Origin: Mustelus asterias | Taxonomy: Eukaryota | DNA: 42,000 bases | Assembly: GCF_964213995.1 (NCBI RefSeq) | Contig: NW_027590818.1 | Coordinates: 124,001-166,000, forward strand | Direction: 5' to 3' | Part shown: piece by piece, positions 3,157 to 32,003 of the stretch | Layout of the letters: each line of letters opens with the position of its first letter | Numbering within the stretch: position 1 is the first letter of the stretch | The notes under the pieces: model-generated | Told to the model about the DNA's origin: nothing | The model's database searches: none | What the model saw: only the letters and a program-made list of their open reading frames with translations | Position numbers and translations under genes: made by a program

Positions 3157-3509
3157 GACTTACATTTTATGAGGAACTTATATGTTGCATGGGACTCCTA
3201 CTTCTGTTTTATGAGGCCATTCGATAACATGTGACTGTCATTGTCAATTCGATACAAAAACAGAAAATGCTGGAAAATCTCAGCAGGTCTGACAGCATCT
3301 GCAGAGAGAAAATAGAGCCAACGTTTCGAGTCTGAATGACCCTTTGTCAGACCGCTTCGCTCCACAGATGCTGTCAGACCTGCTGGGATTTTCCAGCATT
3401 TTCTGTTTTTGTATCGAATTGACAGTGACAGTCACATGTTATCGAATGGCCTCATAAAACAGAAGTAGGAGTCCCATGCAACATATAAGTTCCTCATAAA
3501 ATGTAAGTC
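3157..3509. mobile_element. Penelope-like fold-back element (family A) within a 145-bp-arm inverted repeat
   Basis: Arms 3157-3301 and 3365-3509 with 2 mismatches; core AATGCTGGAAAATCTCAGCAGGTCTG shared with copies at 25273 and 32170; spacer has a degenerate hammerhead on the minus strand (CTGACAA-A-GGGTC-ATTCA-GACTC-GAAACGTT). Confidence 0.75.
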
Positions 3510-4137: not shown

Positions 4138-4789
4138 AAATACGAGGTGCTGATTTTTTCGAATATCTAATTGATAATTGAAACCTTTGACTTTCATTTT
4201 CTTTTCAGACTTTTGTTCCCCAGAAACAAGTTTGTCCTTGAAATTGTCAAGTTTAAGCTGAGCAAAATTGACTTCTTAGCCAGTGGAAACACGAATGCTG
4301 TTAACTGGAACATGAAATTAGCAGTGCGATGAAATAGTCCCATAAGCTGCTGATATGTAACTTTCAATTTCCAAGTCTCACCAACCTCATCATTGCAGCT
4401 CATGTGATACGTATGAGGCAACACAAGGCAGACATCGGTCACTGAAAGCAATTGACGCAGATCATATGTTAAACATTTTAATGTCGCATCTCTTTATGTT
4501 TCTGTTGCTGCCTCTCCTCCTGCTCCCTCTGACCGTCCAGCTCCTCGGATCAATTAGCTTCTTGTGGCAGACCCAGATAGTTGGAGGGAGGATCGGGGAT
4601 TATAGGACACAACGTTGTGTGAAGAGAGGGAGTTCACAGATGACAGGGGATAGAGACACCAGGATCTTATCTTCCTAATTCTCCAAGATGCAGATTACAG
4701 GAAGTTGCACAGTGCCAATTATTCGCAGTCACGCTCTCCTTTCAGTCTTTTGTACGGAGTCAAGTTTCGTAACCTTTGAAGCCTTGCTG

Positions 4790-5640
4790 CATTTGCTCCG
4801 GGTATTGCCAATACTTCATTTGGAATATTGTGTGCATTTTTGGTGTTTTACATTTAAGACAGGATGTGCATCTAATGGAGACGGTACAACAAAACTTCAC
4901 TGGGCTATTCTCTGAGATGAAGGGGTTGTCCTATCATGAGAGATCGGGTAAATTGGGCTCAAATTCTCTGGAGTTCAGCAAAATGATATACTATCTCATT
5001 GAAACATACACAAGAATGAATGGAATAAATCGGATGCATTCTGAGATGTCATTCGCATTCTCAAATGATTTAAAATATGGGACACAGTCTCAGGATAAGG
5101 GACAAAGACTTTAGGACATTTAGGACTGAGATGAGGAGAATAGTTTTGTTGGTTATATATCCAATTCAATCCAATCAAAGTCCAATTCAGTGTCGCAGCA
5201 AGTGATACATACCCGATCCAAGCTGACAAGACAGGGATCTCACCTCCTATCTTGGACTTGATCTATAGGATCCAAGCTGATTCGAGTAGGCATTGCACCT
5301 GCTCCAAGGCTTGATCTCATTTGCATCTCAGCCAAAAGGCCGAGATGCTGCTTTTAAAAAATGCTTCAAATGAAGCTACAATGTAACCTTGTGGCTTCAA
5401 CCAAGTACAGCATGTCGATGCTGCACTTGATCTTAGCCAAAAGGCTGAGAAGCGATGACGAGAAATTACTCCACTCAAAATGTTGCGAATCGTTGGCATT
5501 TTCTCTTCCAGAAGGTTCGGTATGCTCCATCATTGAACACATTTCATTGTGCGACAGACAGATTTCTTCTGTCCAGCAACGAAGGGAAGCAGGCGGGAAT
5601 ATCGAACTTAAACAAATGCTCAGCCACGAATTAATGTTTC
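4790..5640 (+). mobile_element. Decayed CR1 3' end, interrupted at 5141-5456
   Basis: HLEYCVHFW and MKGLSYHER...LG remnants; GATGAGGAGAA resumes as GATGACGAGAAATTACT after the insert. Confidence 0.8.
5141..5456 (-). ncRNA. Retroposed U2 snRNA-derived structured element (candidate U2-type SINE or variant-U2 retrocopy)
   Basis: Starts exactly at U2 nt 1 (5456-5417 = U2 nt 1-40, 3 substitutions); second stem-I copy at 5348-5325; two AGATCAAG...TCAGCTTGGATC units; flanked by GA(G/C)GAGAA direct repeats inside a CR1. Confidence 0.75.
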
Positions 5641-6162: not shown

Positions 6163-6372
6163 TCATGATGTGGAGTTGCCAGCGTTGGACTGGGGTAGGT
6201 ACAGTAAGAATTCTCGCAACACCAGGTTAAATTCCAACAGGTTCATTTGGCAGCAAGAGCTTTCGGAGCGCAACTCTTTCACCTGATGTAGGAGCAGAGC
6301 TCCGAAAGCTCGTGCCACCAAATAAACCTGTTGAACTTTAACGTGGTGTTGTGAGACTACTTACTGTACTTC
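6163..6372. mobile_element. Penelope-like fold-back element (family B), older copy
   Basis: TCATGATGTGGAG...ACAGTAAG...CACCAGGTTAA head and inverted arm as at 15414; hammerhead motif at 6280-6314 with core mutated to CTGATGT. Confidence 0.75.
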
Positions 6373-9445: not shown

Positions 9446-10353
9446 TTATTTCAATCGTTTAAATATCAGACAGAATGGGTATGTCAGCCAAATCTTTAAC
9501 TCCTCCCTTACTTTACTCTGGGTGCCTGCGTAAATGAATGGGTTAATGCAGGAACTCAACAGCTGAAGCATATACCCACCTTCGTCCAGAATAAAATTCG
9601 ATTGATTGTAATTGGTGCCCGAGAAATAGCTAACGTTCGCAATTTGGACACAGAGAAAAGTTGTAATTACTAACGAATATAACAAGATGAAACTTCCAGA
9701 GACACAGAAGAGTAAAACAATCGACTTTCGCCTCTTCTCCACTTCAGGGTCTCTCTGATTCTCTGCATTGCTTTGATCCAAGAGTCTGCTCCGGGCTCTG
9801 TTGGCTATAACGATGTGCCTTACGGTCAGTGCATTAAACAGTAAAATCAAAATGAATGGAAGACAAGGATTTAAGATGACGAAAATCCAGTCAAATGAGA
9901 CCCAAGCAGCTGTTGTGTAATATGTTGTTTTTAAGTTGCAGTACCATGGTGTCTCATCGATGAAAAATGCAGGCTCATAGATAAAGTACAGCGGGATATT
10001 TCTTACACTGTTCAGAGCGCAGGCAGTTCCAATAACCACAGCTGCTGTTTTTTCTGTGCAAAATTTGGTTTTCAGTTTCTGACAACAAATCGCAACAAAT
10101 CGATCAAAGGTGAACGCGACGGTGACCCAGACAGATGAATCCCTGACCCCATAAATCAGCATAAGACTAACACGACAGACCGGAGTGATGGACAGGAAAC
10201 TGAATTGGAAATAAATACCTATAATCCGGTTAACTATTACAGCAGTGATGATTACGAGGAGATCCGTTACAGCCATGAATACCAGGTAATAAGTGATACA
10301 TTTGGAAAGGCCACATCTTCCTCGAGGTAGGATCACAATCACTGCCAAATTAG
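9446..10353 (-). CDS. GPR139/GPR142-like class A GPCR, gene 1, exon 2 (spliced protein 325 aa)
   Basis: Acceptor TTTTTCCTGTCACAG then phase-1 (A)NLAVIVIL; open through TM7 with MAVTDLL, TPVC, FTFDRFVAIC, WYC, SSCINPFIY. Confidence 0.92.
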
Positions 10354-10929
10354 CTGTGACAGGAAAAACAGCATGTGAATAATGCTAGAAAATAAGGACA
10401 GAACATAAAATATTGCAATGACTCAGAAGTCGGGAAATCATTGCAGAGAGAGCAGTTTTAGCATATCAGGTGGATTACCTGCCTCGTAACTGGAGGAAAT
10501 AAAACCACTCAATGCACACAGCTGCTGGCATGTTGCTGCAATATTAGGAAGATTTTTGTTTCTCTCATATGGCGGACACTGAACTTGGTACTTTGCAGAT
10601 CATTGGCAGGAAATACAATTAATTATCATCTGTCTCAAATTGTAGAGAAGAACAAAGATAAGAAGAGTCATTGCGAATCATTGCGAATTCGAATGGGCTC
10701 TAATACTATATTGACCAAGGAATTGGGCAGAAAGACAATATATGACATTGAGTGTTAAAGAAGGGAAATGTTTCACACAAAATAAAAACAGAAAGAAACG
10801 ATGACTGAAATATAAACGACCCATTTGCTTGGGAAGAGCTCGACTCCTGATTGATAATGATCACAAACTAATATATCAATAATTTGCATAAACCAATAAA
10901 GAAACTCAACATGTAAATATCTCATTGCA

Positions 10930-15413: not shown

Positions 15414-15782
15414 TCATGATGTGGAGATGCCGGCGTTGGACTGGGGTAAGCACAGTAAGAAGTTTCACAACACCAGGTTAAAGTCCAACAGGTTTATTTG
15501 GTAGCAAATACCAAAAGCTTTCGGAGCAGAGCTCCTTCGTCAGATGGAGTGGTTATCTGTTCTCAAACAGTACACAGACACAGAAATCAAATTACAGAAT
15601 ACTGATTAGAATTACTGATTGCATTCTAATCAGTATTCTGTAATTTGATTTCTGTGTCTGTGTACTGTTTGAGAACAGATATCCACTCCATCTGACGAAG
15701 GAGCTCTGCTCCGAAAGCTTATGGTATTTGCTACCAAATAAACCTGTTGGACGTTAACCTGGTGTTGTGAGACTTCTTACTG
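15414..15782. mobile_element. Penelope-like fold-back element (family B), young copy
   Basis: ~161-bp inverted arms (15452-15612 / 15623-15783, about 4 mismatches, 10-nt loop); 12-bp TSD TCCTTTGGGCAG at 15402-15413 and 15783-15794; AATAAA in each arm. Confidence 0.85.
15688..15724 (+). ncRNA. Minimal type I hammerhead ribozyme motif
   Basis: CCAT-CTGACGA-A-GGAGC-TCT-GCTCC-GAAA-GC-TT-ATGG: stem I CCAU/AUGG, intact core, 5-bp stem II, palindromic AGCU in place of stem III. Confidence 0.75.
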
Positions 15783-17619
15783 TCCTTTGGGCAGGCCAGT
15801 TCTGGCTCCACAGGGCAGCAGCACCTTGGATTCCATGCCCTCTCACTTTTGCTAGAAGCCTTGCATGGGGGACCTTATCGAACGCCTTGCTAAAATCCAT
15901 ATAAACCACATCTACCGCTTTCCCTTCGTTAATGTGTTTAGTCACGTTTTTGAAGAACTCCACCAGGCTCGTAAGGCAAGATCTGCCTTTGACAAAGCCG
16001 TGCTGAGTATTCTTGAGCATACTAAACCTCTCTAAATGCTCATAAATCCCGTCCCTCAGCATCTTCTCCATCAGCTTACCAGCCACTGAGGTTAGACTCA
16101 CCGGTCGGTAATTTCCTGGGCTATCCCTATTCCCCTTCTTGAAAATAGGAACCACATCCGCAATCCTCCAGTCCTCCGGCACCTCTCCCATCTCCATTGA
16201 TGACGCAAAGATCATCGCCTGAGGCTCTGCGATCTCTTCCCTCGCCTCCCACAGTAACCTGGGGTACATCCCATCCAGACCCGGCGACTTATCTATCTTG
16301 ATGCCATTCAAAGATTCCAGCACAACCTCTTTCTTAAAGTCCACATACTCAATCTTTTCAGTCCACCGCAAGACCACAGTACATCCACCCAGGTCCTTTT
16401 TCTCTGTGAAAACCGAGGCAAAATACTCATTAAGCACCTCTGCCATTTCTACTGGTTCTGTACAGACTTTCCAACCTTCAACGTTTATCGGCCCTATTCC
16501 TTCACGTCTCATCCTTTTTCCTTTCACATATTTATAGAACGCCTTAGGGTTCTCCTTAATCCTACCTGCCAAGGCATTCTCGTGATCCCTTCTGGCTCTC
16601 CTAATTTCCTTCTTTAGTCCCTTCCTACAAGCCGTATACTCATCTAGATCCCTATCTTCGCCAAGCTCTCTGAACCTTTTGTACGCTTTCCTTTTCTTTG
16701 CGACTAGGTCCCGCACAGCTTTCGTGCAACACGGTTCCTTTAACCTACCAACACCTCCCTGTCTGCTCGGAACATTGTCCTGTAGAACTCGAGACGGACA
16801 TTCCTTGAAAAACTGCCACCTCTCTTCACTACATTCCCCGGGAATACCTCCTTCCAATTTACTCCTCTAATTTGCGGCCTTATGTCTTCATATTTCCCCT
16901 TACACCATATAAACGCTTTCTGAGCTAGCCTGATCCTCTCTTTTTCCAATGCAAGCACAAAGGTGATAGAGTTATGATCGCTATCCCCAAGATACTCTCC
17001 CACTGAGAGATTTGACACCTGTCCAGGTTCATTGGTCAGTATCAGATCAAGTACAGCCTCTCCTCTTGTAGGCTTCTCCACATGCTGTGTTAGGAAACCC
17101 TCCTGAACACACCTAACGTACTCCTCCCCATCCAATCCCCTTGCCCTAGGGATATTCCAATCTATGTTTGGGAAATCAAAGTCTCCCATCACAACAACTC
17201 TGCTATTACTGCATCTCTCCACGAGCTGTTTCCCGATCTGCTCCTCCACCTCCCTGTTACTATTGGGCGGCCTGTAGAAAACTCCCAGCAAAGTGATCGA
17301 CCCCTTCCCATTCCGAACTTCCACCCACAGAGACTCTGTAGACAATCTCTCCACAGCATACACCTTCTCTACAGCTGTGATTCCCGCCTTAGTCAATGCG
17401 CAACCGTTATCCTACCAGTGGCTGCTGCAAAGTAACTTCGTCAGGTGGTTACTTCGAATTGCTTTCTTCCTCAGAAGCGACTGTCCGAGCTCTTTAGAAC
17501 AATGTTGGTCTAAATAAAGGGTGATTATACTGTTGCAAAAAATGTATGAAGCGTCAACTTCGCTGCAAAAGAATGTTGTAATTCGAGAAGTTCCGTTTCC
17601 ATTCGTTCATACAATGTGA

Positions 17620-20020: not shown

Positions 20021-20438
20021 TCTCACAACTGCTTGAAATTAAGGCCTGAAAATCTTGCCGACGAAATATTAGAATACTTTTCAAATGATGCACGGTAGGC
20101 CGAAGGGGCAGTAATTTGGAGAACAGGATTTGTCTTTTTTTTCTCGTGGACAGGACATACTTGGAATATTTTCCACATTTTCTTTTGTGTCAGGAATGGA
20201 ATTGCTGGTACATTTGTATGGCTACTTGGAGACAACGGTCTGCATTATCGCTGCCCAGATGCAGCCACGTCCCATAGTCGCTTCTGTACACAGAGCCATC
20301 AACCGTTTGTTGATAGCACGTGGACCAAATAATATTCGCAGAAGTTTGAAACTAATGATGCTGCAATCCGCGGGAGTCGGAACAGAGAAAATCTCGAGTA
20401 TCCAATGCAGTATAAAACAGTGAGAAATTGCAAATTGC

Positions 20439-23400
20439 AAAGAACTCAAACGAGGAATTAGAAGGGCAAAAAGGGGTCACGAAATGTCCTTGGCAGACAG
20501 GATTAAGGAGAATCCCAAGGCATTTTATTCATACGTTAGGAACAAAAGTGTTGTCAGGGTAAAAATCGGACCTCTCAGGGACAAAAGTGGGGAATTATGC
20601 TTGGAGCCCAAAGAAATAGGGGAGATCCTAAATGAATACTTTGCCTCGGTATTCACAAAGGAGAGGGATGTGTTGACTGGGAGTGTCTCGGAGGGGAGTG
20701 TTGAACCGTTGGAGAGAATCTCCATTACAAGGGAGGAAGGGTTAGGTTTGTTAGACAATATAAAGACTGACAAATCCCCAGGGCCTAATGGAATCTATCC
20801 AAGGCTGCTCAGGGAGACGAGAGATGAAATCGCTGGGCCTCTGACGCAAACCTTCGTCTCGTCACTGGATGCAGGTGAGGTCCCAGAGGATTGGAGGATA
20901 GCTAATGTGGTCCCGTTATTTAAGAAGGGTAGGAAGGATAACCCGAGTAATTATAGGCCGGTGAGATTGACGTCCGTGGTGGGGAAGTTGTTGGAGAAGA
21001 TTCTTAGAGATAGGATGTATGCGCATTTAGAAAGGAATAAACTAATTAACGATAGTCAGCATGGTTTTGTGAGAGGGAGGTCATGCCTCACTAACCTGGT
21101 GGAGTTTTTTGAAGAAGTGACCAGAATGGTTGACGAGGGAAGGGCCGTGGATGTCGTCTATATGGACTTTAGTCAAGCGTTTGACAAAGTCCCTCATGGT
21201 AGGCTGGTGCAAAAGGTTGGATCTCATGGGATAAAGGGGGAGGTGGCTAGATGGGGGGAGAACTGGCATGGTCACAGAAGACAGAGGGTGGTAGTGGAAG
21301 GGTCTTTTTCCAGCTGGAGGCCTGTGACTAGTCGTGTTCCGCAGGGCTCTGTATTGGGACCTCAGCTGTTTGTGATTTATATAAACGATCTGGAAGAAGG
21401 TGTAACTGGGGTGATCAGTAAGTTTGCGGACGACACAAAATTGGCAGGACTTGCAGATAATGAGGAGCATTGTTGGTTAAAAAGAAAAAGGAGGCTTATG
21501 TTCGGATGAGACGTGAGCACTCGGGTAGTGCACTAGAAAGCTTTAGATTGGCTAAGAGGGAGTTGAAGAGCGAGCTTAGAAGGGCTAAAAGGGGACATGA
21601 GAAGACTTTGGCGGATAGGGTTAAAGAGAATCCTAAGGCGTTCTATAGGTATGTCAAGAACAGAAGGTTGGTTAGGGCAAGTTTAGGGCCAGTTATAGAT
21701 GGCAGAGGGAAGTTATGTGTGGAACCGGAGGAGATTGGTGAAGCATTGAACCAATATTTCTCTTCGGTGTTCACGCAAGGGGACATGAATATAGCTGAGG
21801 AGGACACTGGGTTGCAAGGGAGTAGAATAGACAGTATTACAGTTGATAAGGAGGATGTGCAGGATATTCTGGAGGGTCTGAAAATAGATAAATCCCCTGG
21901 TCCGGATGGGATTTATCCAAGGATTCTCTGGGAGGCAAGAGAAGTGATTGCAGAGCCTCTGGCTCTGATCTTCAGGTCGTCGTTGGCCTCTGGTATAGTA
22001 CCAGAAGATTGGAGGTTAGCGAATGTTGTCCCATTGTTTAAGAAGGGGAACAGAGACTTCCCCGGGAATTATAGACCGGTGAGTCTCACTTCTGTTGTCG
22101 GCAAGATGTTGGAAAAAATTATAAGGGATAGGATTTATAGTTATTTGGAGAGTAATGAATTGATAGGTGATAGTCAGCATGGTTTTGTGGCAGGTAGGTC
22201 GTGCCTTACTAACCTTATTGAGTTTTTTGAGAAAGTGACCAAGGAGGTGGATGGGGGCAAGGCAGTGGACGTGGTATATATGGATTTTAGTAAGGCGTTT
22301 GATAAGGTTCACCATGGTAGGCTTCTGCAGAAAATGCAGATGTATGGGATTGGGGGTGATCTAGGAAATTGGATCAGGAATTGGCTAGCGGATAGGAAAC
22401 AGAGGGTGGTGGTTGATAGTAAATATTCATCATGGAGTGCGGTTACAAGTGGTGTACCTCAGGGATCTGTTTTGGGGCCACTGCTGTTTGTAATATTTAT
22501 TAATGATCTGGATGAGGGTATAGTTGGGTGGATTAGCAAATTTGCTGATGACACCAAAGTCGGTGGTGTGGTAGACAGTGAGGAAGGGTGTCGTAGTTTG
22601 CAGGAAGACTTAGACAGGTTGCAAAGTTGGGCCGAGAGGTGGCGGATGGAGTTTAATGCGGAGAAGTGTGAGGTAATTCACTTTGGTAGGAATAACAGTT
22701 GTGTTGAGTATAGGGCTAACGGGAGGACTTTGAATAGTGTGGAGGAGCAGAGGGATCTAGGTGTATGTGTGCATAGATCCCTGAAAGTTGGGAATCAAGT
22801 AGATAAGGTTGTTAAGAAGGCATATGGTGTCTTGGCGTTTATTGGTAGGGGGATTGAATTTAGGAGTCGTAGCGTTATGTTGCAACTGTACACAACTCTG
22901 GTGCGGCCGCACTTGGAGTACTGTGTGCAGTTCTGGTCCCCACATTACAGGAAGGATGTGGAGGCTTTGGAGAGGGTGCAGAGGAGGTTTACCAGGATGT
23001 TGCCTGGTATGGAGGGGAGATCCTATGAGGAGAGGCTGAGGGATTTGGGATTGTTTTCGCTGGAAAGGCGGCGGCTAAGAGGGGATCTTATTGAAACATA
23101 TAAGATGATTAGAGGTTTAGATAGGGTGGATAGTGATAGCCTTTTTCCTCTGATGGAGAAATCCAGCACGAGGGGGCATGGCTTTAAATTGAGGGGGGGT
23201 AGTTATAGAACCGATGTCAGGGGTAGGTTCTTTACCCAGAGGGTGGTGAGGGATTGGAATGCCCTGCCAGCATCAGTAGTAAATGCGCCTAGTTTGGGGG
23301 CGTTTAAGAGATCCGTAGATAGGTTCATGGACGAAAAGAAATTGGTTTAGGTTGGAGGGTCACAGTTTTCTTTTTAACTGGTCGGTGCAACATCGTGGGC

Positions 23401-24312
23401 CGAAGGGCCTGTTCTGCGCTGTAATGTTCTATGTTCTATGTTCTATGTTCTATTGTCAGAAGCTACAGAAGGATATAGATAGGCTGGAAATTTGGGCAAA
23501 GAAATGGCAGATGGCGTTCAATCCTGATGAATGCGAAGTGATGCATTTTGTTAGAAATAATGTAGGGAGGAGCTATACGATAAGTGGCAGAACCATAAAG
23601 GGTGTAGATACGCATAGGGACCTGGGTGTGGAAGTCCACAGATCCTTGAAGGTGACGTCACAGGTGGAGAAGGTGGTGAAGAAGGCATATGGCATGCTTG
23701 CCTTTATAGGACGGGGCATAGACTATAAAAGTTGGGGTCTGATGTTGCAGATGTATAGAACGTTGGTTCGGCCGCATTTGGAATACTGCGTCCAGTTCTG
23801 GTCTCCACACTACTAGAAGGACGTGGAGGCTTTGGAGAGAGTACAGAGGAGGTTTACCAGGATGTTGCCTGGTATGGAGGGGCTTAGTTATGAGGAGAGA
23901 TTGGGTAAACTGGGGTTGTTCTCCCTGGAAAGACGGAGGATGAGGGGAGACTTAATAGAGGTGTATAAAATTATGAAAGGCATAGATAGGGTGAACGGTG
24001 GGAAGCTTTTCCCCAGGTCGGTGGTGACGTTCACGAGGGGTCATAGGTTCAAGGTGAAGGGGGGGAGGTTTAACACAGATATCAGAAGGACATATTTTAC
24101 ACAGAGGGTGGTGGGGGCCTGGAATGCGCTGCCAGGCAAGGTGGTGGAGGCGGACACATTGGGAACGTTTAAGACTTATCTGGATCGCCATATGAACGGA
24201 GTGGGAATGGATGGATACAAAATAATGGTCTCGTTTAGACCAGGGAGCGGCACGGGCTTGGAGGGCCGAAGGGCCTGTTCCTGTGCTGTATTGTTCTTTG
24301 TTCTTTGTTCTT
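20439..24312 (+). mobile_element. CR1 LINE (outer copy), split at 21473/23452
   Basis: ORF2 rejoins as ...DNEEHC|QKLQKDIDRL...; one internal stop (TAG near 23814); (TTGTTCT)n tail. Confidence 0.95.
21474..23451 (+). mobile_element. CR1 LINE (inner, young copy) with an uninterrupted ~625-aa RT-containing frame
   Basis: All RT motifs intact ([16 protein letters not shown]); (ATGTTCT)n tail; TSD ATTGT at 21469-21473 and 23452-23456; 5'-truncated, no endonuclease. Confidence 0.97.
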
Positions 24313-25272
24313 AAATCACTGTTCCGCCTCAATTTACATTTAAAAGTTAAAATGTAATTGGTAAATTGGCTATAATTATATTTCCTCCACTTTCATGGGA
24401 ATGCATCTTCCGAAAAGTAATTTATCACGTTATCTCAATTGAAAAGGAGACCAAAAGTGTTAGGTAAACTATTGCTTCTCAATTTTGAAAAGGAAGTTGG
24501 ACAAATGGTTTCATTGGAAGCGCGTTGGTTGTCGTGTCAATTACACTGAATGAGCCATTGTTTGTGGAAGATAGTGGGGTGCTTCCCAGGACAAGTCAAA
24601 AGTTCCTGTCCTTGTAAGAGGAAGAAAAACTGAGAATATTAATATGCGAAGTAGGGTGGGGATTCCACAGCTCTGGTGTCCATCAACCAGGGTAGGATGA
24701 ACACTCGTGGCTTAGATAAATATTGAACTGTTGGAAATGGTAACACGGCTGTATAATCGGCCCAATAACTATCTAAATGAAGGAAATGCGAGCAGAGAAC
24801 ATAAAATGCGAGAGGGAAAAGAATGGGAGAAAGTGCAGCTAAGGAAGCAGTCGGATTTACAGGGCGATTTAGTGGATAATAATTACCAACTTCTAGCAAG
24901 AAATATACAAGGCAAAATCAATCGAAAGTGCGGAAAATTTAGAGATCAACATTGGGAAGGATTGGAAAGGGAATATTTTGGATGCAATTGAGCAATATTT
25001 CAGTATTGTTTGTAAGAGTGGGAAACAACACTGAGTTAAGGACATTTTAAACACAGCGTGAAGGAAATGTTGAGCAGGGCTAGAACAGGAATGAAATAAA
25101 ACAGATATAGCGCAGATATAGCTATGTCCTTACACATAGCAATGCCTATTTATTCAATCAATTGATTGTTTTTTTTTAAAGGGTAAAATCTTCAATGTGA
25201 CATTTTCTTCCAATACTCCTGGGTCTGGTCATCAGCAGAGTCACGATTAAACTGAGAAATTAATAGGTAGAG

Positions 25273-28178: not shown

Positions 28179-28685
28179 TCACCTTCCTGGCAGGGGTGAA
28201 ACCATGATCATGCAGGTGGTTCGCCCAGGACGAGGCTAGCCCGTTTCAATTAAGGTGTGCTGACACCTACGATGCCCCCAGATGCGGTATACTCGACTGA
28301 AACATTTGTAGTACTCATAGAATCATAGAATCATAGAAACCCTACAGTGCAGAAGGAGGCCATTCGGCCCATCGAGTCTGCACCGACCTCAATCCCACCC
28401 AGGCTCTACCCCCACATATTTTACCCACTAATCCCTCTAACCTACGCATCCCAGGACTCTAAGGGGCAATCTTTTTTTTTAACCTGGCCAATCAACCTAA
28501 CCCGCACATCTTTGGACTGTGGGAGGAAACCGGAGCACCCGGAGGAAACCCACGCAGACACGAGGAGAATGTGCAAACTCCACACAGACAGTGACCCGAG
28601 CCGGGAATCGAACCCAGGACCCTGGAGCTGTGAAGCAGCAGTGCTAACCACTGTGCTACTCGTTGCTGCGCTTGCGCTAAAAAAA
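28179..28685 (+). pseudogene. U1 snRNA pseudogene (probable retrocopy), split by an HE1 SINE
   Basis: 28179-28313 colinear with U1 (CCTGGCAGGGG...ACCATGATCA...AGGTGGTT..CCCAGG.CGAGGCT...TGTGCTGAC...ACTCGACTG...ATTTGT); after the SINE, CTGCGCTTGCGCT followed by A7; embedded in a decayed CR1 3' UTR. Confidence 0.85.
28317..28656 (-). mobile_element. HE1-type V-SINE, young copy
   Basis: Well-preserved head and core, (CTATGATT)n tail, TSD TACTC. Confidence 0.92.
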
Positions 28686-29558: not shown

Positions 29559-31092
29559 GTATGATATTGTAATTTTGCAGTTAGTTAATAGCTAATTATC
29601 GTTCAGCTCCATCAATGCTGTCTTTGTATTCACATCACTTCTTCAAGTTACATACGTATTTGCTTGTGTTTAATCCCTCCAGCGATATAAATTGTTTTAT
29701 TTGAAGGATATACATTATTTTTTTAAGTACAATTCTTTATATGTAACTGCATTAACTCGTCTTTTTAAAAGTACATTATCGGGCGTTTGTGAATATAGTT
29801 TAGCGTAATTAACGTTAAAGTTTCAAACCTTGAATGTTTTCATTGGACCTATTTCCCCACATAGTTTCTTCACTTGAATGCACTTTTCACTGACACCATC
29901 TTCCTCCGATAGTTATTATTTAATCGCGGCACTTATAGAATTTCACCAATTTACTTCTCAGATCTCAGTGTGTATCTTCAATTTTATTGTTTAATAGAAC
30001 CGCTAGAATGGATTAATTAGCTTACTATTAACACCGTATAAATGCAATTCATTTTTTTTATTTTCAGAACTGTAGACGTTATTATGGTTTTATTTAGATC
30101 CCTTGTGATTGTCCCAAATAGTCAATTCTGACATGGCTATCACAGAGTCAATGGACTGGCATTGTATTCTCGGTGCGGTTCCTTGCAGTGACTTTTAAAC
30201 TTTCGTATCACGTTGTTTTTGTAGATTTATTGTTGACACGTGTAGTGAAGCAATAATTCCCTCAAATAATTCAACAATTGAGAAGATTGAACCACTGAAT
30301 AATCCCAAATTGAATTGTATCAAATCGTTTATTTAAGGAACGTTAGGAGGCATGGCGGTTGACAGACATGTAAGCAATATAATTGTTGCCCTCTAATGGA
30401 TGACTGATATTACCCTTCACTCACCGAACTCAGTGCTCGTATTCTCAGCCGCTAACGCTTATAGACACTGGATTTCTCATGAAGAGAGCTCCAGTTTGCC
30501 CCTGCATAGCACATAAAATGTCCCCGGCAATTTCACAGAAATTTTCATTGTTCATTCTCTTCCCTGGGATGGTATTTTTGTGCAAGTTTATTCCCAACCT
30601 TTCGAAAACAAGTGAATGATTTTACATTACTTAATTGATAGGACCTGTTTTACATCGACTGTGAGATATAATCCGTGACATTGTTACTTTCCAATCTCAT
30701 TTTTGGCTGGTTTGCTGTTTATCTACTGTAATTTTTTTTCTTCTTTTATTTGTTGTGGATATTTTGGTACACCTCCCTTTTTATTCTTTGCATTCTGTCG
30801 GCCGCGTTCAATCCTGCTCTGTCAGTAGTGATATAAATTTGATTTCTTCTAATCGTTTATTTGGGCATCATGGAGAATTTTGCATGATTATTCTATTGCC
30901 CTATCTAATTATCTAATAAAGATGACTTTTTCAAAACAAGTAAGGAATTGTCCAGAGCGGAATGACTCACATCCAACCTAATATCAAATCATAATGCTTT
31001 ACATTTCACACACAATACTAAAACACTGTTGATTTTATTGCCATTCGAAAAACTAACTCTCTCTGTTTTTTTTCTCTCTCCCTTTCTTACAG

Positions 31093-32003
31093 CCAACTTG
31101 GCAGTGATTGTGATCCTGTCTCGAAGAAGATGCGGTCTCTCTGGATGTGTCACTTATTACCTGGTTTCCATGGCGGTAACGGATCTCCTGGTGATGCTCA
31201 CGGCTGTAATATTAAACCGAATTGCTGGCATCTATTTCCCCTCTAGTTTCCTGTCTATCACACCAGTTTGCGGTATTCGTGCTGTCCTGAATATCACAGC
31301 AATGGACAGTTCTGCCTGGTTAACGGTCGCTTTCACCTTTGATCGATTTGTGTCCATTTCCTGTCAGAAGCTGAAATTAAAATATTGCACAGAAAAGAGA
31401 GCGATGCGTGTAATAGGAATCGTGTCCATTCTGGCCTGTGTAAAAAATATCTTCCTATATTTACAATTTGAACCTCGGTATATCATTAATAACGTACCCT
31501 GGTTCTGCATGATAAGAGGAATAATTTATACATCACCAGCTTGGGCAGCGTATGACTGGATCCGTTCCACTTTAACCCCTTTTCTTCCTTTCATTCTGAT
31601 TGCATTGCTCAATGCTCTGACTGTCAAACACATTCTAGCGGCTAATAGAGCCCGCAGGAGACTCCGGACCCAGAGCAATGGAGAGAATCAGAGTGACCCA
31701 GAGGTGGAGAAGAGGAGAAAGTCCATTGTTTTACTCTTCGCCATCTCGGGCAGTTTCATCCTATCTTATTTGTTATTTTTTATAAACATCCTCTTTGTGC
31801 GAATTGCTAAAGTTACTTATTTCTCGGGTTCGAATTTCAGTAATTCCACGTTCATTCTCTCTGAGACTGGATATATGCTCCAGCTCTTGAGTTCTTGTAT
31901 CAACCCCTTTATTTATGCTGTGACCCAGAATAAAATCAGAGATGAGTTAAAGAATGGGATGAAATATCCACTGAACGTTTTTGTAAAAATATTTATGTCT
32001 TGA
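31093..32003 (+). CDS. GPR139/GPR142-like class A GPCR, gene 2, exon 2 (spliced protein 326 aa)
   Basis: Long polypyrimidine tract + CTTACAG, phase 1; (A)NLAVIVIL, MAVTDLL, TPVC, FTFDRF, WFC, SSCINPFIY; no disruption. Confidence 0.93.

What the first reader, a model, noticed from the sequence alone, without database searches (positions are those of the whole stretch)
5215..5429. The U2-derived element is a chain of hairpins that buries the branch-point recognition region
Seen on the minus strand: CAAGTGCAGCAT-CGAC-ATGCTGTACTTG forms a 12-bp stem (5429-5402), and the two T-to-C differences from U2 GUGUAGUA both pair with G in it. The second stem-I copy is perfected to 11 bp (GCATCTCGGCC-TTTT-GGCTGAGATGC). 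The two repeat units hold different inner stems (GAGCAGG/CCTACTC; CAAGATAGG/CCTGTCTTG), each closable by GATCAAG/CTTGGATC. Inference: structure kept despite sequence change suggests selection on the source RNA, for example to avoid interfering with splicing while using U2 promoter/processing machinery, or a new RNP function.
Basis: partly seen in the sequence, partly recalled or inferred. Interest (0 to 1): 0.75.

Follow-up and report, generated by a model that had tools for sequence, protein, structure and literature searches.

The report
U2-headed retroposon with a self-locked head
This is one old inserted copy of a jumping element with over 5,000 copies that starts with the front end of the U2 splicing RNA and is predicted to fold that piece away; the pairing has been kept across the family's successive versions, and the element likely borrows the promoter of U2 genes and the enzymes of a U2-targeting retrotransposon.

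Summary
The hairpins are real (z -6.4). The element runs 5456-5143 (minus strand) and is one copy of a dispersed retroposon: at least 5,350 copies, target-site duplications, A-rich tail, empty paralogous sites. An antisense arm is predicted to pair with U2 nt 11-39, burying the branch-site sequence in all 12 subfamily majorities. Family data still support selection on structure: shared changes avoid stems (26 of 111, neutral share 55%) and keep pairing (18 of 25, against 77 of 203 private changes). Copies end at the Keno site of U2 genes, one lies behind an intact U2 upstream region, and dispersed copies carry U2-array spacer inside duplications. Sources therefore likely sit in U2 arrays and use Keno (Tx1) enzymes. 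It works like crocodilian SINEU, whose transcription is unexplained in print. Expression is untested. This scan reported the family earlier on other DNA of this genome.

The parts
5143..5456 (-). Whole retroposon copy (old A-type subfamily), about 314 nt with tail
   Evidence: Alignment with dispersed copies; about 7% from the nearest of 190 sampled copies
5454..5464 (-). 5' copy of the target-site duplication (one mismatch; last 3 nt coincide with the element's first 3 nt)
   Evidence: Matches 5130-5140; empty sites L141 and L142 hold one copy
5417..5456 (-). U2 snRNA head, nt 1-40, with three private transitions (nt 11, 34, 37)
   Evidence: Rfam U2; comparison with U2 genes of this genome
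5419..5424 (-). U2 nt 33-38, the branch-site-pairing sequence (numbering recalled); altered in this copy, intact in the family majority
5385..5413 (-). Antisense arm predicted to pair with U2 nt 11-39 (long hairpin with two small internal loops)
   Evidence: Folds; helix 1 is 97.6% paired over 29 copies
5363..5376 (-). Short hairpin, lengthened to 10 bp in younger subfamilies
5352..5362 (-). Unpaired A-U5-6-A tract between hairpins; Sm-site-like but without the G after the U run; first A lost in this copy
   Evidence: No shared change in this tract; Sm consensus recalled
5323..5348 (-). Second U2 stem-I copy, extended hairpin
5269..5316 (-). Repeat unit 1, compound hairpin with a subfamily-variable loop
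5215..5263 (-). Repeat unit 2, compound hairpin; holds the one widely shared two-sided change (A-U to G-C)
   Evidence: columns 231/276
5192..5208 (-). Last hairpin of the family, broken by two private changes in this copy
5160..5189 (-). 3' terminal repeat region common to the family
   Evidence: An 18-mer overlapping its start has 5,259 exact copies, control 0
5143..5159 (-). Decayed A-rich tail
5130..5140 (-). 3' copy of the target-site duplication
4688..5568 (+). Decayed 3' end of a LINE ORF2 (CR1-like, name recalled) into which the element inserted; it is the upstream flank, not an snRNA promoter
   Evidence: tblastn E 4e-15 and 2e-4 on either side; continuous in empty paralogues

Best explanation
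The window holds one old, likely inactive insertion of an abundant non-autonomous retroposon whose RNA starts with U2 nt 1-40 and is predicted to fold that head into a long hairpin with its own antisense arm. Shown: copy number, duplications, A-tails, 5' truncation, an empty site, many successive subfamilies, and copies joined to U2 genes exactly at the Keno site. Inferred mechanism: the Keno (Tx1-clade) LINE's enzymes copy the RNA into DNA, mostly at scattered A-rich sites, where the copy has no promoter and decays neutrally. Occasionally a copy lands in a U2 gene at nt 38/39, where the shared head joins it seamlessly to the U2 upstream region; such copies become Pol II-transcribed sources and found new subfamilies. 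Source lineages are under selection to keep the stems while loops drift. The most likely benefit of the head hairpin is to keep the U6-pairing and branch-site-pairing parts of U2 from drawing the RNA into U2 snRNP assembly and splicing; this last step is untested.
For: Retroposon: 2,283 + 3,067 exact 21-mer matches, controls 0; duplications of 9 nt or more in 86 of 207 copies against a control mean of 3.5; empty paralogues; 3 of 190 copies with 14-23 A-to-G and 1 T-to-C change, as from an edited RNA. Keno link: the LINE in the U2 array has APE, RT and zinc-knuckle domains and is followed by U2 nt 39 onward; 10 element-type tails join that same U2 position, control 0, 8 of the 10 with the element body confirmed; a Keno-type tail lies just upstream of 6 of 214 copies against 1 of 1,943 control windows. 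Sources in U2 arrays: L307 lies behind a U2 upstream region 98.8% identical over 645 nt to intact units; L299 lies in a second, 448-bp U2 array; 6 of 7 dispersed hits to that array's spacer run into the element, and L289, L290, L292 and L295 are bounded by duplications. Structure selection: private changes hit stems and loops alike (1.9% and 2.3%), shared changes avoid stems (26 of 111, p 2e-11) and keep pairing (18 of 25 against 77 of 203, p 0.002); this holds without the U2 head and junction loop (22 of 87; 15 of 21).
Against: No transcript was tested. The promoter is assigned by position only, and no octamer was found in 330 nt upstream of any U2 type. L307 itself has a rearranged body (80% to the reference). 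Only 53 of 207 copies start at U2 +1, which template switching onto U2 snRNA could also give. Body and tail show no significant similarity to Keno (36 to 240 of 500 shuffles score as high). True two-sided covariation is thin: 4 of 63 pairs, one shared by several subfamilies. Subfamilies are mosaic, so tree-based counts are approximate, and loop alignment is uncertain. Of 30 Keno tails, 4 are followed directly by the element and none by a U2 gene, so Keno's targeting is loose here.
Confidence: 0.7

Rival explanations
1. Same retroposon, but the hairpins are kept for transposition itself (RNA stability, export, recognition by Keno proteins, or shielding from dsRNA sensors), not to avoid splicing interference.
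For: All helices are conserved, including those unrelated to the branch site. One Keno type folds its own U2 head into a similar hairpin (-21.6 kcal/mol, z -3.5) although it carries only part of the branch-site sequence.
Against: The arm covers exactly the functional U2 5' region, and 4 to 6 of the 6 branch-site bases are paired in 140 of 143 copies. Another Keno type (L301) lacks the arm.
Confidence: 0.35
2. Sources are transcribed by read-through from host genes or Keno, and the U2 head is re-added by template switching onto U2 snRNA, as Kojima proposed for SINEU; copies in U2 genes are bystanders.
For: Extra U2 5' fragments precede some copies (L290, L292, L304, L305). The array-derived transductions start upstream of the fused head, so they show read-through rather than initiation at that head.
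Against: The transduced sequence is U2-array spacer inside duplications, which places transcribed copies in U2 arrays. Subfamily variation starts at nt 38, the Keno site.
Confidence: 0.2
3. The family derives from a functional, host-selected new snRNA-like RNP, and the dispersed copies are its pseudogenes.
Against: Many short-lived subfamilies with rewritten loops; no tandem gene array among the 40 best hits; tails and duplications on the copies; the tract lacks the consensus G.
Confidence: 0.06
4. This particular copy was co-opted, and its head hairpin was strengthened by selection after insertion.
For: Its head hairpin is the most stable of 143 copies (-37.6 against a median of -28.1 kcal/mol), reached by 1 of 1,500 neutral simulations.
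Against: It was picked from thousands because it looks perfect; 3 of its 9 changes in paired positions break pairs; paralogues L135 and L136 lost the 3' end; the two T-to-C changes make 6 nt an exact mirror of the facing strand and may be one template-switch event (inference); its upstream flank is a dead LINE.
Confidence: 0.05

Closest known systems
SINEU-1/-2/-3 of crocodilians (Kojima 2015, PMC4494074; parts 1-4 of 5 read, figures and supplements not seen)
   Same: Short non-coding retroposon with a U2-derived head and a further internal U2 piece, A-rich tail, duplications, tandem insertion around one duplication, oligo-T that argues against Pol III, and a Tx1-clade partner inferred from shared targets.
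   Different: The paper found SINEU only in crocodilians, targeting Mariner-N4 through Tx1-Mar, and left transcription open. Here the partner is Keno itself, copies lie in U2 genes and carry U2-array spacer, and an antisense arm is predicted to lock the head. Sequence homology to SINEU was not tested.
Keno, U2-targeting Tx1 LINE (described in PMC4494074 and PMC4640811; passages read in the latter)
   Same: Same U2 insertion point, U2-derived 5' end, similar A/T-rich tail, interleaved tandem insertions.
   Different: No coding capacity, and no significant body or tail similarity to Keno.
Utopia, U2-targeting LINE with a restriction-like endonuclease (PMC4640811, passages read)
   Same: Same 3' flanking U2 sequence as Keno, according to the paper.
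   Different: The LINE found in the U2 array has an APE domain; Utopia was not searched for in this genome.
U2 snRNA retropseudogenes and U2-LINE chimeras (as summarised in PMC4494074)
   Same: U2 5' end, tail and duplications.
   Different: A fixed composite structure shared by thousands of copies with its own subfamilies, not independent chimeras.

Membership tests
SINEU | Head derived from U1 or U2 snRNA | tested here: met
   U2 nt 1-40
SINEU | Short, non-coding, high-copy unit with a shared composite structure | tested here: met
   About 300-330 nt, at least 5,350 copies
SINEU | A-rich tail, target-site duplications, 5' truncation | tested here: met
   86 of 207 copies with duplications; 154 of 207 truncated
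SINEU | Mobilised by a Tx1-clade LINE | tested here: inconclusive
   Shared target site and tandem insertions with Keno; no significant tail homology; no assay
SINEU | [quoted passage not shown] | tested here: not met
   Flanks are unrelated sequences, U2 genes or other copies; the genome is shark-like by its repeats (recalled, no call names it)
SINEU | Descent from crocodilian SINEU-1/-2/-3 (sequence homology beyond U2) | not testable with these tools
   No repeat library or other animal genome is held
Functional U2 snRNA gene | Full length, with stems II-IV and a free branch-site sequence | tested here: not met
   47.6 bits against about 190 for true genes; only the 5' 40 nt match; branch site paired
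Functional U2 snRNA gene | snRNA promoter upstream of this copy | tested here: not met
   The upstream flank is a decayed LINE ORF2, continuous in empty paralogues
Internally deleted Keno (bipartite LINE derivative) | 5' UTR and 3' UTR homologous to the LINE | tested here: not met
   Alignment scores within shuffle range against the one Keno type compared
Sm-class snRNP RNA | TMG cap, Sm ring, discrete transcript | not testable with these tools
   Needs RNA experiments; the U tract is conserved but non-consensus

The most novel reading that the evidence does not exclude
A self-silenced U2 mimic: a retroposon that lives by landing in U2 genes, is transcribed from their Pol II promoter, enters snRNP biogenesis through its conserved Sm-like tract to gain a cap, stability and cytoplasmic passage where Keno proteins capture it, and has evolved an antisense lock that keeps its U2 head out of the spliceosome.
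Probability: 0.25. Interest if true: 0.8.

Novelty: new variant of a known kind. Interest (0 to 1): 0.55.

Why it matters
How snRNA-headed retroposons are transcribed without an internal promoter is stated as an open question in the SINEU paper (PMC4494074). This family offers a testable answer: named loci fused to U2 upstream regions and transductions that trace back to U2 arrays. It also shows measurable selection on RNA structure in a mobile element's source lineages, and suggests how a parasite can carry the catalytic 5' end of U2 without disturbing splicing. My literature searches found no report of such an element outside crocodilians, but repeat databases and subscription journals were not searchable. 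The window copy itself is likely an ordinary dead insertion.

Tried and rejected
(1) An snRNA promoter upstream of the window copy: rejected; the flank is a decayed LINE that is continuous in empty paralogues. (2) The window lineage as a master gene: rejected; no dispersed copy among the 40 best hits shares its changes. (3) General DNA-level perfecting of hairpins: no excess of G.U-to-Watson-Crick changes in 75 copies (T: 5 of 548 against 37 of 4,896; G: 6 of 433 against 55 of 4,112). (4) Descent of the body or tail from the Keno UTRs: looked likely by eye, not significant. (5) A separate abundant LINE sharing the 3' end: the tail count (5,259) does not exceed the body count (5,350). (6) Expression: no RNA holder listed; no reads were laid, so expression stays open. 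(7) First tree count included root-adjacent events caused by a divergent outgroup; 56 of 167 shared events were dropped (38/129 became 26/85) with the same result. (8) Octamer search upstream of U2 genes: none found. Rows left out: segmental-duplication paralogues of the window copy (one kept) and copies under 240 nt (190 of 221 unique hits aligned); 64 of 190 copies fell outside clusters of three or more.

Full report
Observation. The region 5215-5429 folds at -85.8 kcal/mol against a shuffle mean of -59.3 (z -6.4, 0 of 200). Alone, the 12-bp and 11-bp stems score z -5.0 and -7.5, and the two repeat units z -1.8 and -2.6. The element starts at 5456 with U2 +1 (Rfam U2, 47.6 bits). With the head included, the first stem is the tip of a longer interrupted hairpin in which 5413-5385 pairs with U2 nt 11-39 and replaces U2 stem I (-37.6 kcal/mol, z -8.2). 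The same 75 nt of a true U2 gene fold at -15.7 with the branch-site sequence unpaired. By recalled U2 numbering, the lock covers the U6-pairing region as well as the branch-site sequence.

What it is. The window is G000:C786 of a 3.68-Gb genome; its repeats look shark-like to me (recalled; no call names the species). Two alternative 21-mers of the element have 2,283 and 3,067 exact matches and a tail 18-mer has 5,259, all controls 0. Copies have unrelated flanks, A-rich tails and 5' truncations. Of 207 copies, 86 have an exact duplication of 9 nt or more (mismatched-pair control mean 3.5) and 53 start at U2 +1. The youngest subfamily has 40 of 40 scored hits at 99-100% identity, so the family was active recently. 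Three of 190 copies carry 14-23 A-to-G changes and one T-to-C each, and private A-to-G exceeds T-to-C (1.27% against 0.77%, p 0.012), as expected from edited RNA templates (inference).

The window copy. It lies in a segmental duplication present at 8 places. It inserted into a decayed LINE ORF2 on the opposite strand, and older paralogues L141 and L142 show the empty site. Four further paralogues (L137-L140) hold three copies at the same site; in L137 and L140, read in full, the 3'-most is the same insertion and two more were added upstream, each behind the same duplication. That orthologous copy lacks the two T-to-C changes and the stem-I change, so these arose after insertion. In 190 aligned copies nt 34 is C in 3, nt 37 is C in 7, and the stem-I position is G in 6. 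Of 20 differences from its closest relatives, 6 keep a pair, 3 break one and 11 are outside my pair list. Its head hairpin is nonetheless the most stable of 143 copies, and only 1 of 1,500 neutral simulations reaches it. I cannot fully explain this. Selection of a striking copy from thousands and a single template switch at the hairpin tip are the likely causes (inference), since the family shows no general perfecting bias.

Selection on structure in source lineages. The family has many subfamilies whose differences cluster in three loops and form mosaics. All 12 clusters of three or more copies fold strongly (z -3.9 to -10.5, 25 shuffles each) and bury the branch-site region; 4 to 6 of its 6 bases are paired in 140 of 143 copies. 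In the largest cluster (75 copies) private non-CpG changes hit stems at 1.9% and unpaired sites at 2.3% (p 0.07), and 77 of 203 keep pairing. Distinct changes shared by 3-149 copies fall in stems in 26 of 111 cases against an expected share of 55% (p 2e-11), and 18 of 25 keep pairing (p 0.002). Leaving out the U2 head, which may be refreshed from U2 genes, and the junction loop gives 22 of 87 (p 6e-8) and 15 of 21 (p 0.004). On 29 hand-picked representatives, 98.1% of cells are paired over 63 pairs; 4 pairs change on both sides (1 of 500 shuffles), and only one such change is widespread. The signal is thus mostly conservation and wobble exchange, not classical covariation, and related sequences inflate these shuffle tests.

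Partner LINE. One U2 array on C24 has an 8,035-bp unit containing a LINE with ZCCHC3-type RNA-binding, zinc-knuckle, APE and RT domains, whose tail is followed by U2 from nt 39. This fits Keno as described in PMC4494074 and PMC4640811. Ten element-type tails join U2 at that same position (control 0); the body was confirmed in 8 of 10, one of them inside the C24 array. A Keno-type tail lies within 70 nt upstream of 6 of 214 copies (control 1 of 1,943) and another element's tail of 30 of 214. Conversely 4 of 30 Keno tails are followed directly by the element, two of them loci already in my sample. Sequence similarity of body or tail to Keno is not significant. One Keno type folds its own U2 head with an antisense arm (z -3.5) and another does not.

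Source copies. L307 places an element, with a rearranged body, directly behind a U2 upstream region 98.8% identical to intact units over 645 nt. A second U2 array on C21 (448-bp unit, variant U2) holds a fused copy (L299). Of 15 hits to that array's spacer, 8 are in the array and 7 dispersed; 6 of the 7 run into the element and one into Keno. L289, L290, L292 and L295 are bounded by duplications of 10-18 nt and include 36 to several hundred nt of array sequence; L293 shows none. Three more dispersed copies carry 5-7 nt of the main U2 upstream sequence, one with a duplication. So RNA from elements in U2 arrays has been retrotransposed. Whether it initiates at the fused head or further upstream is not shown, the promoter is assigned by position, and the variant array's activity is unknown.

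Mechanism. Shown: a retroposon, its shared target with Keno, its presence behind U2 upstream sequence, and constraint on stems. Inferred: Keno proteins mobilise it; insertions in U2 genes supply the promoter; T runs in the head rule out Pol III, as argued for SINEU; and the lock keeps the U2 head from acting in splicing. The last step competes with a plain transposition or stability role.

Comparison and novelty. It works like crocodilian SINEU and meets its structural definition, but not its target or range, and descent was not testable. Eight literature searches found no report in cartilaginous fish. I read parts 1-4 of 5 of PMC4494074 and passages of PMC4640811 and PMC5786205; other papers were seen only as listings, and no supplements were opened. 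Earlier notes of this scan describe the same family, the Keno link, the locked head and edited copies on other DNA of this genome. My reading was stated before that look-up, and the notes are not independent support.

Verdict. Observation partly confirmed, interpretation partly supported. New variant of a known kind; interest 0.55.

Noticed in passing
window 28179-28316 (+): U1 snRNA-like copy (65.4 bits, below the 69.5 cut-off), cut after the Sm site by another short repeat on the opposite strand.
   Followed up: no
window 9446-10384 (-) and 30966-32003 (+): Two related rhodopsin-family 7TM receptor reading frames; the element lies about 4 kb downstream of the first, on the same strand.
   Followed up: partly
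window 15437-15798, 3157-3509, 6199-6369: Long near-perfect inverted repeats (176, 154 and 83-nt arms) made of common dispersed repeats; their Rfam microRNA hits are below cut-off.
   Followed up: no
window 20424-24314 (+): Nested LINE ORF2 fragments, one with a 628-aa open RT frame.
   Followed up: partly
L300 (G000:C21, about 28.05-28.08 Mb): A second U2 array with a 448-bp unit and a variant U2 (90% to the main gene), heavily invaded by Keno.
   Followed up: partly
L061:1111-1175: Keno's own 5' end starts with U2 sequence and folds it with an antisense arm; the L301 type has a different junction and no arm.
   Followed up: partly
L076, L108, L161: Copies with 23, 14 and 16 A-to-G changes, likely retrotransposed edited RNA.
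   Followed up: partly
L137-L140, L239, L172, L021: Repeated head-to-tail insertion of different subfamilies at one site with the same duplication; 30 of 214 copies have another copy's tail just upstream.
   Followed up: partly
L061:3712-4836: The Keno copy in the amplified U2 array unit appears interrupted in ORF2 by a short repeat.
   Followed up: no
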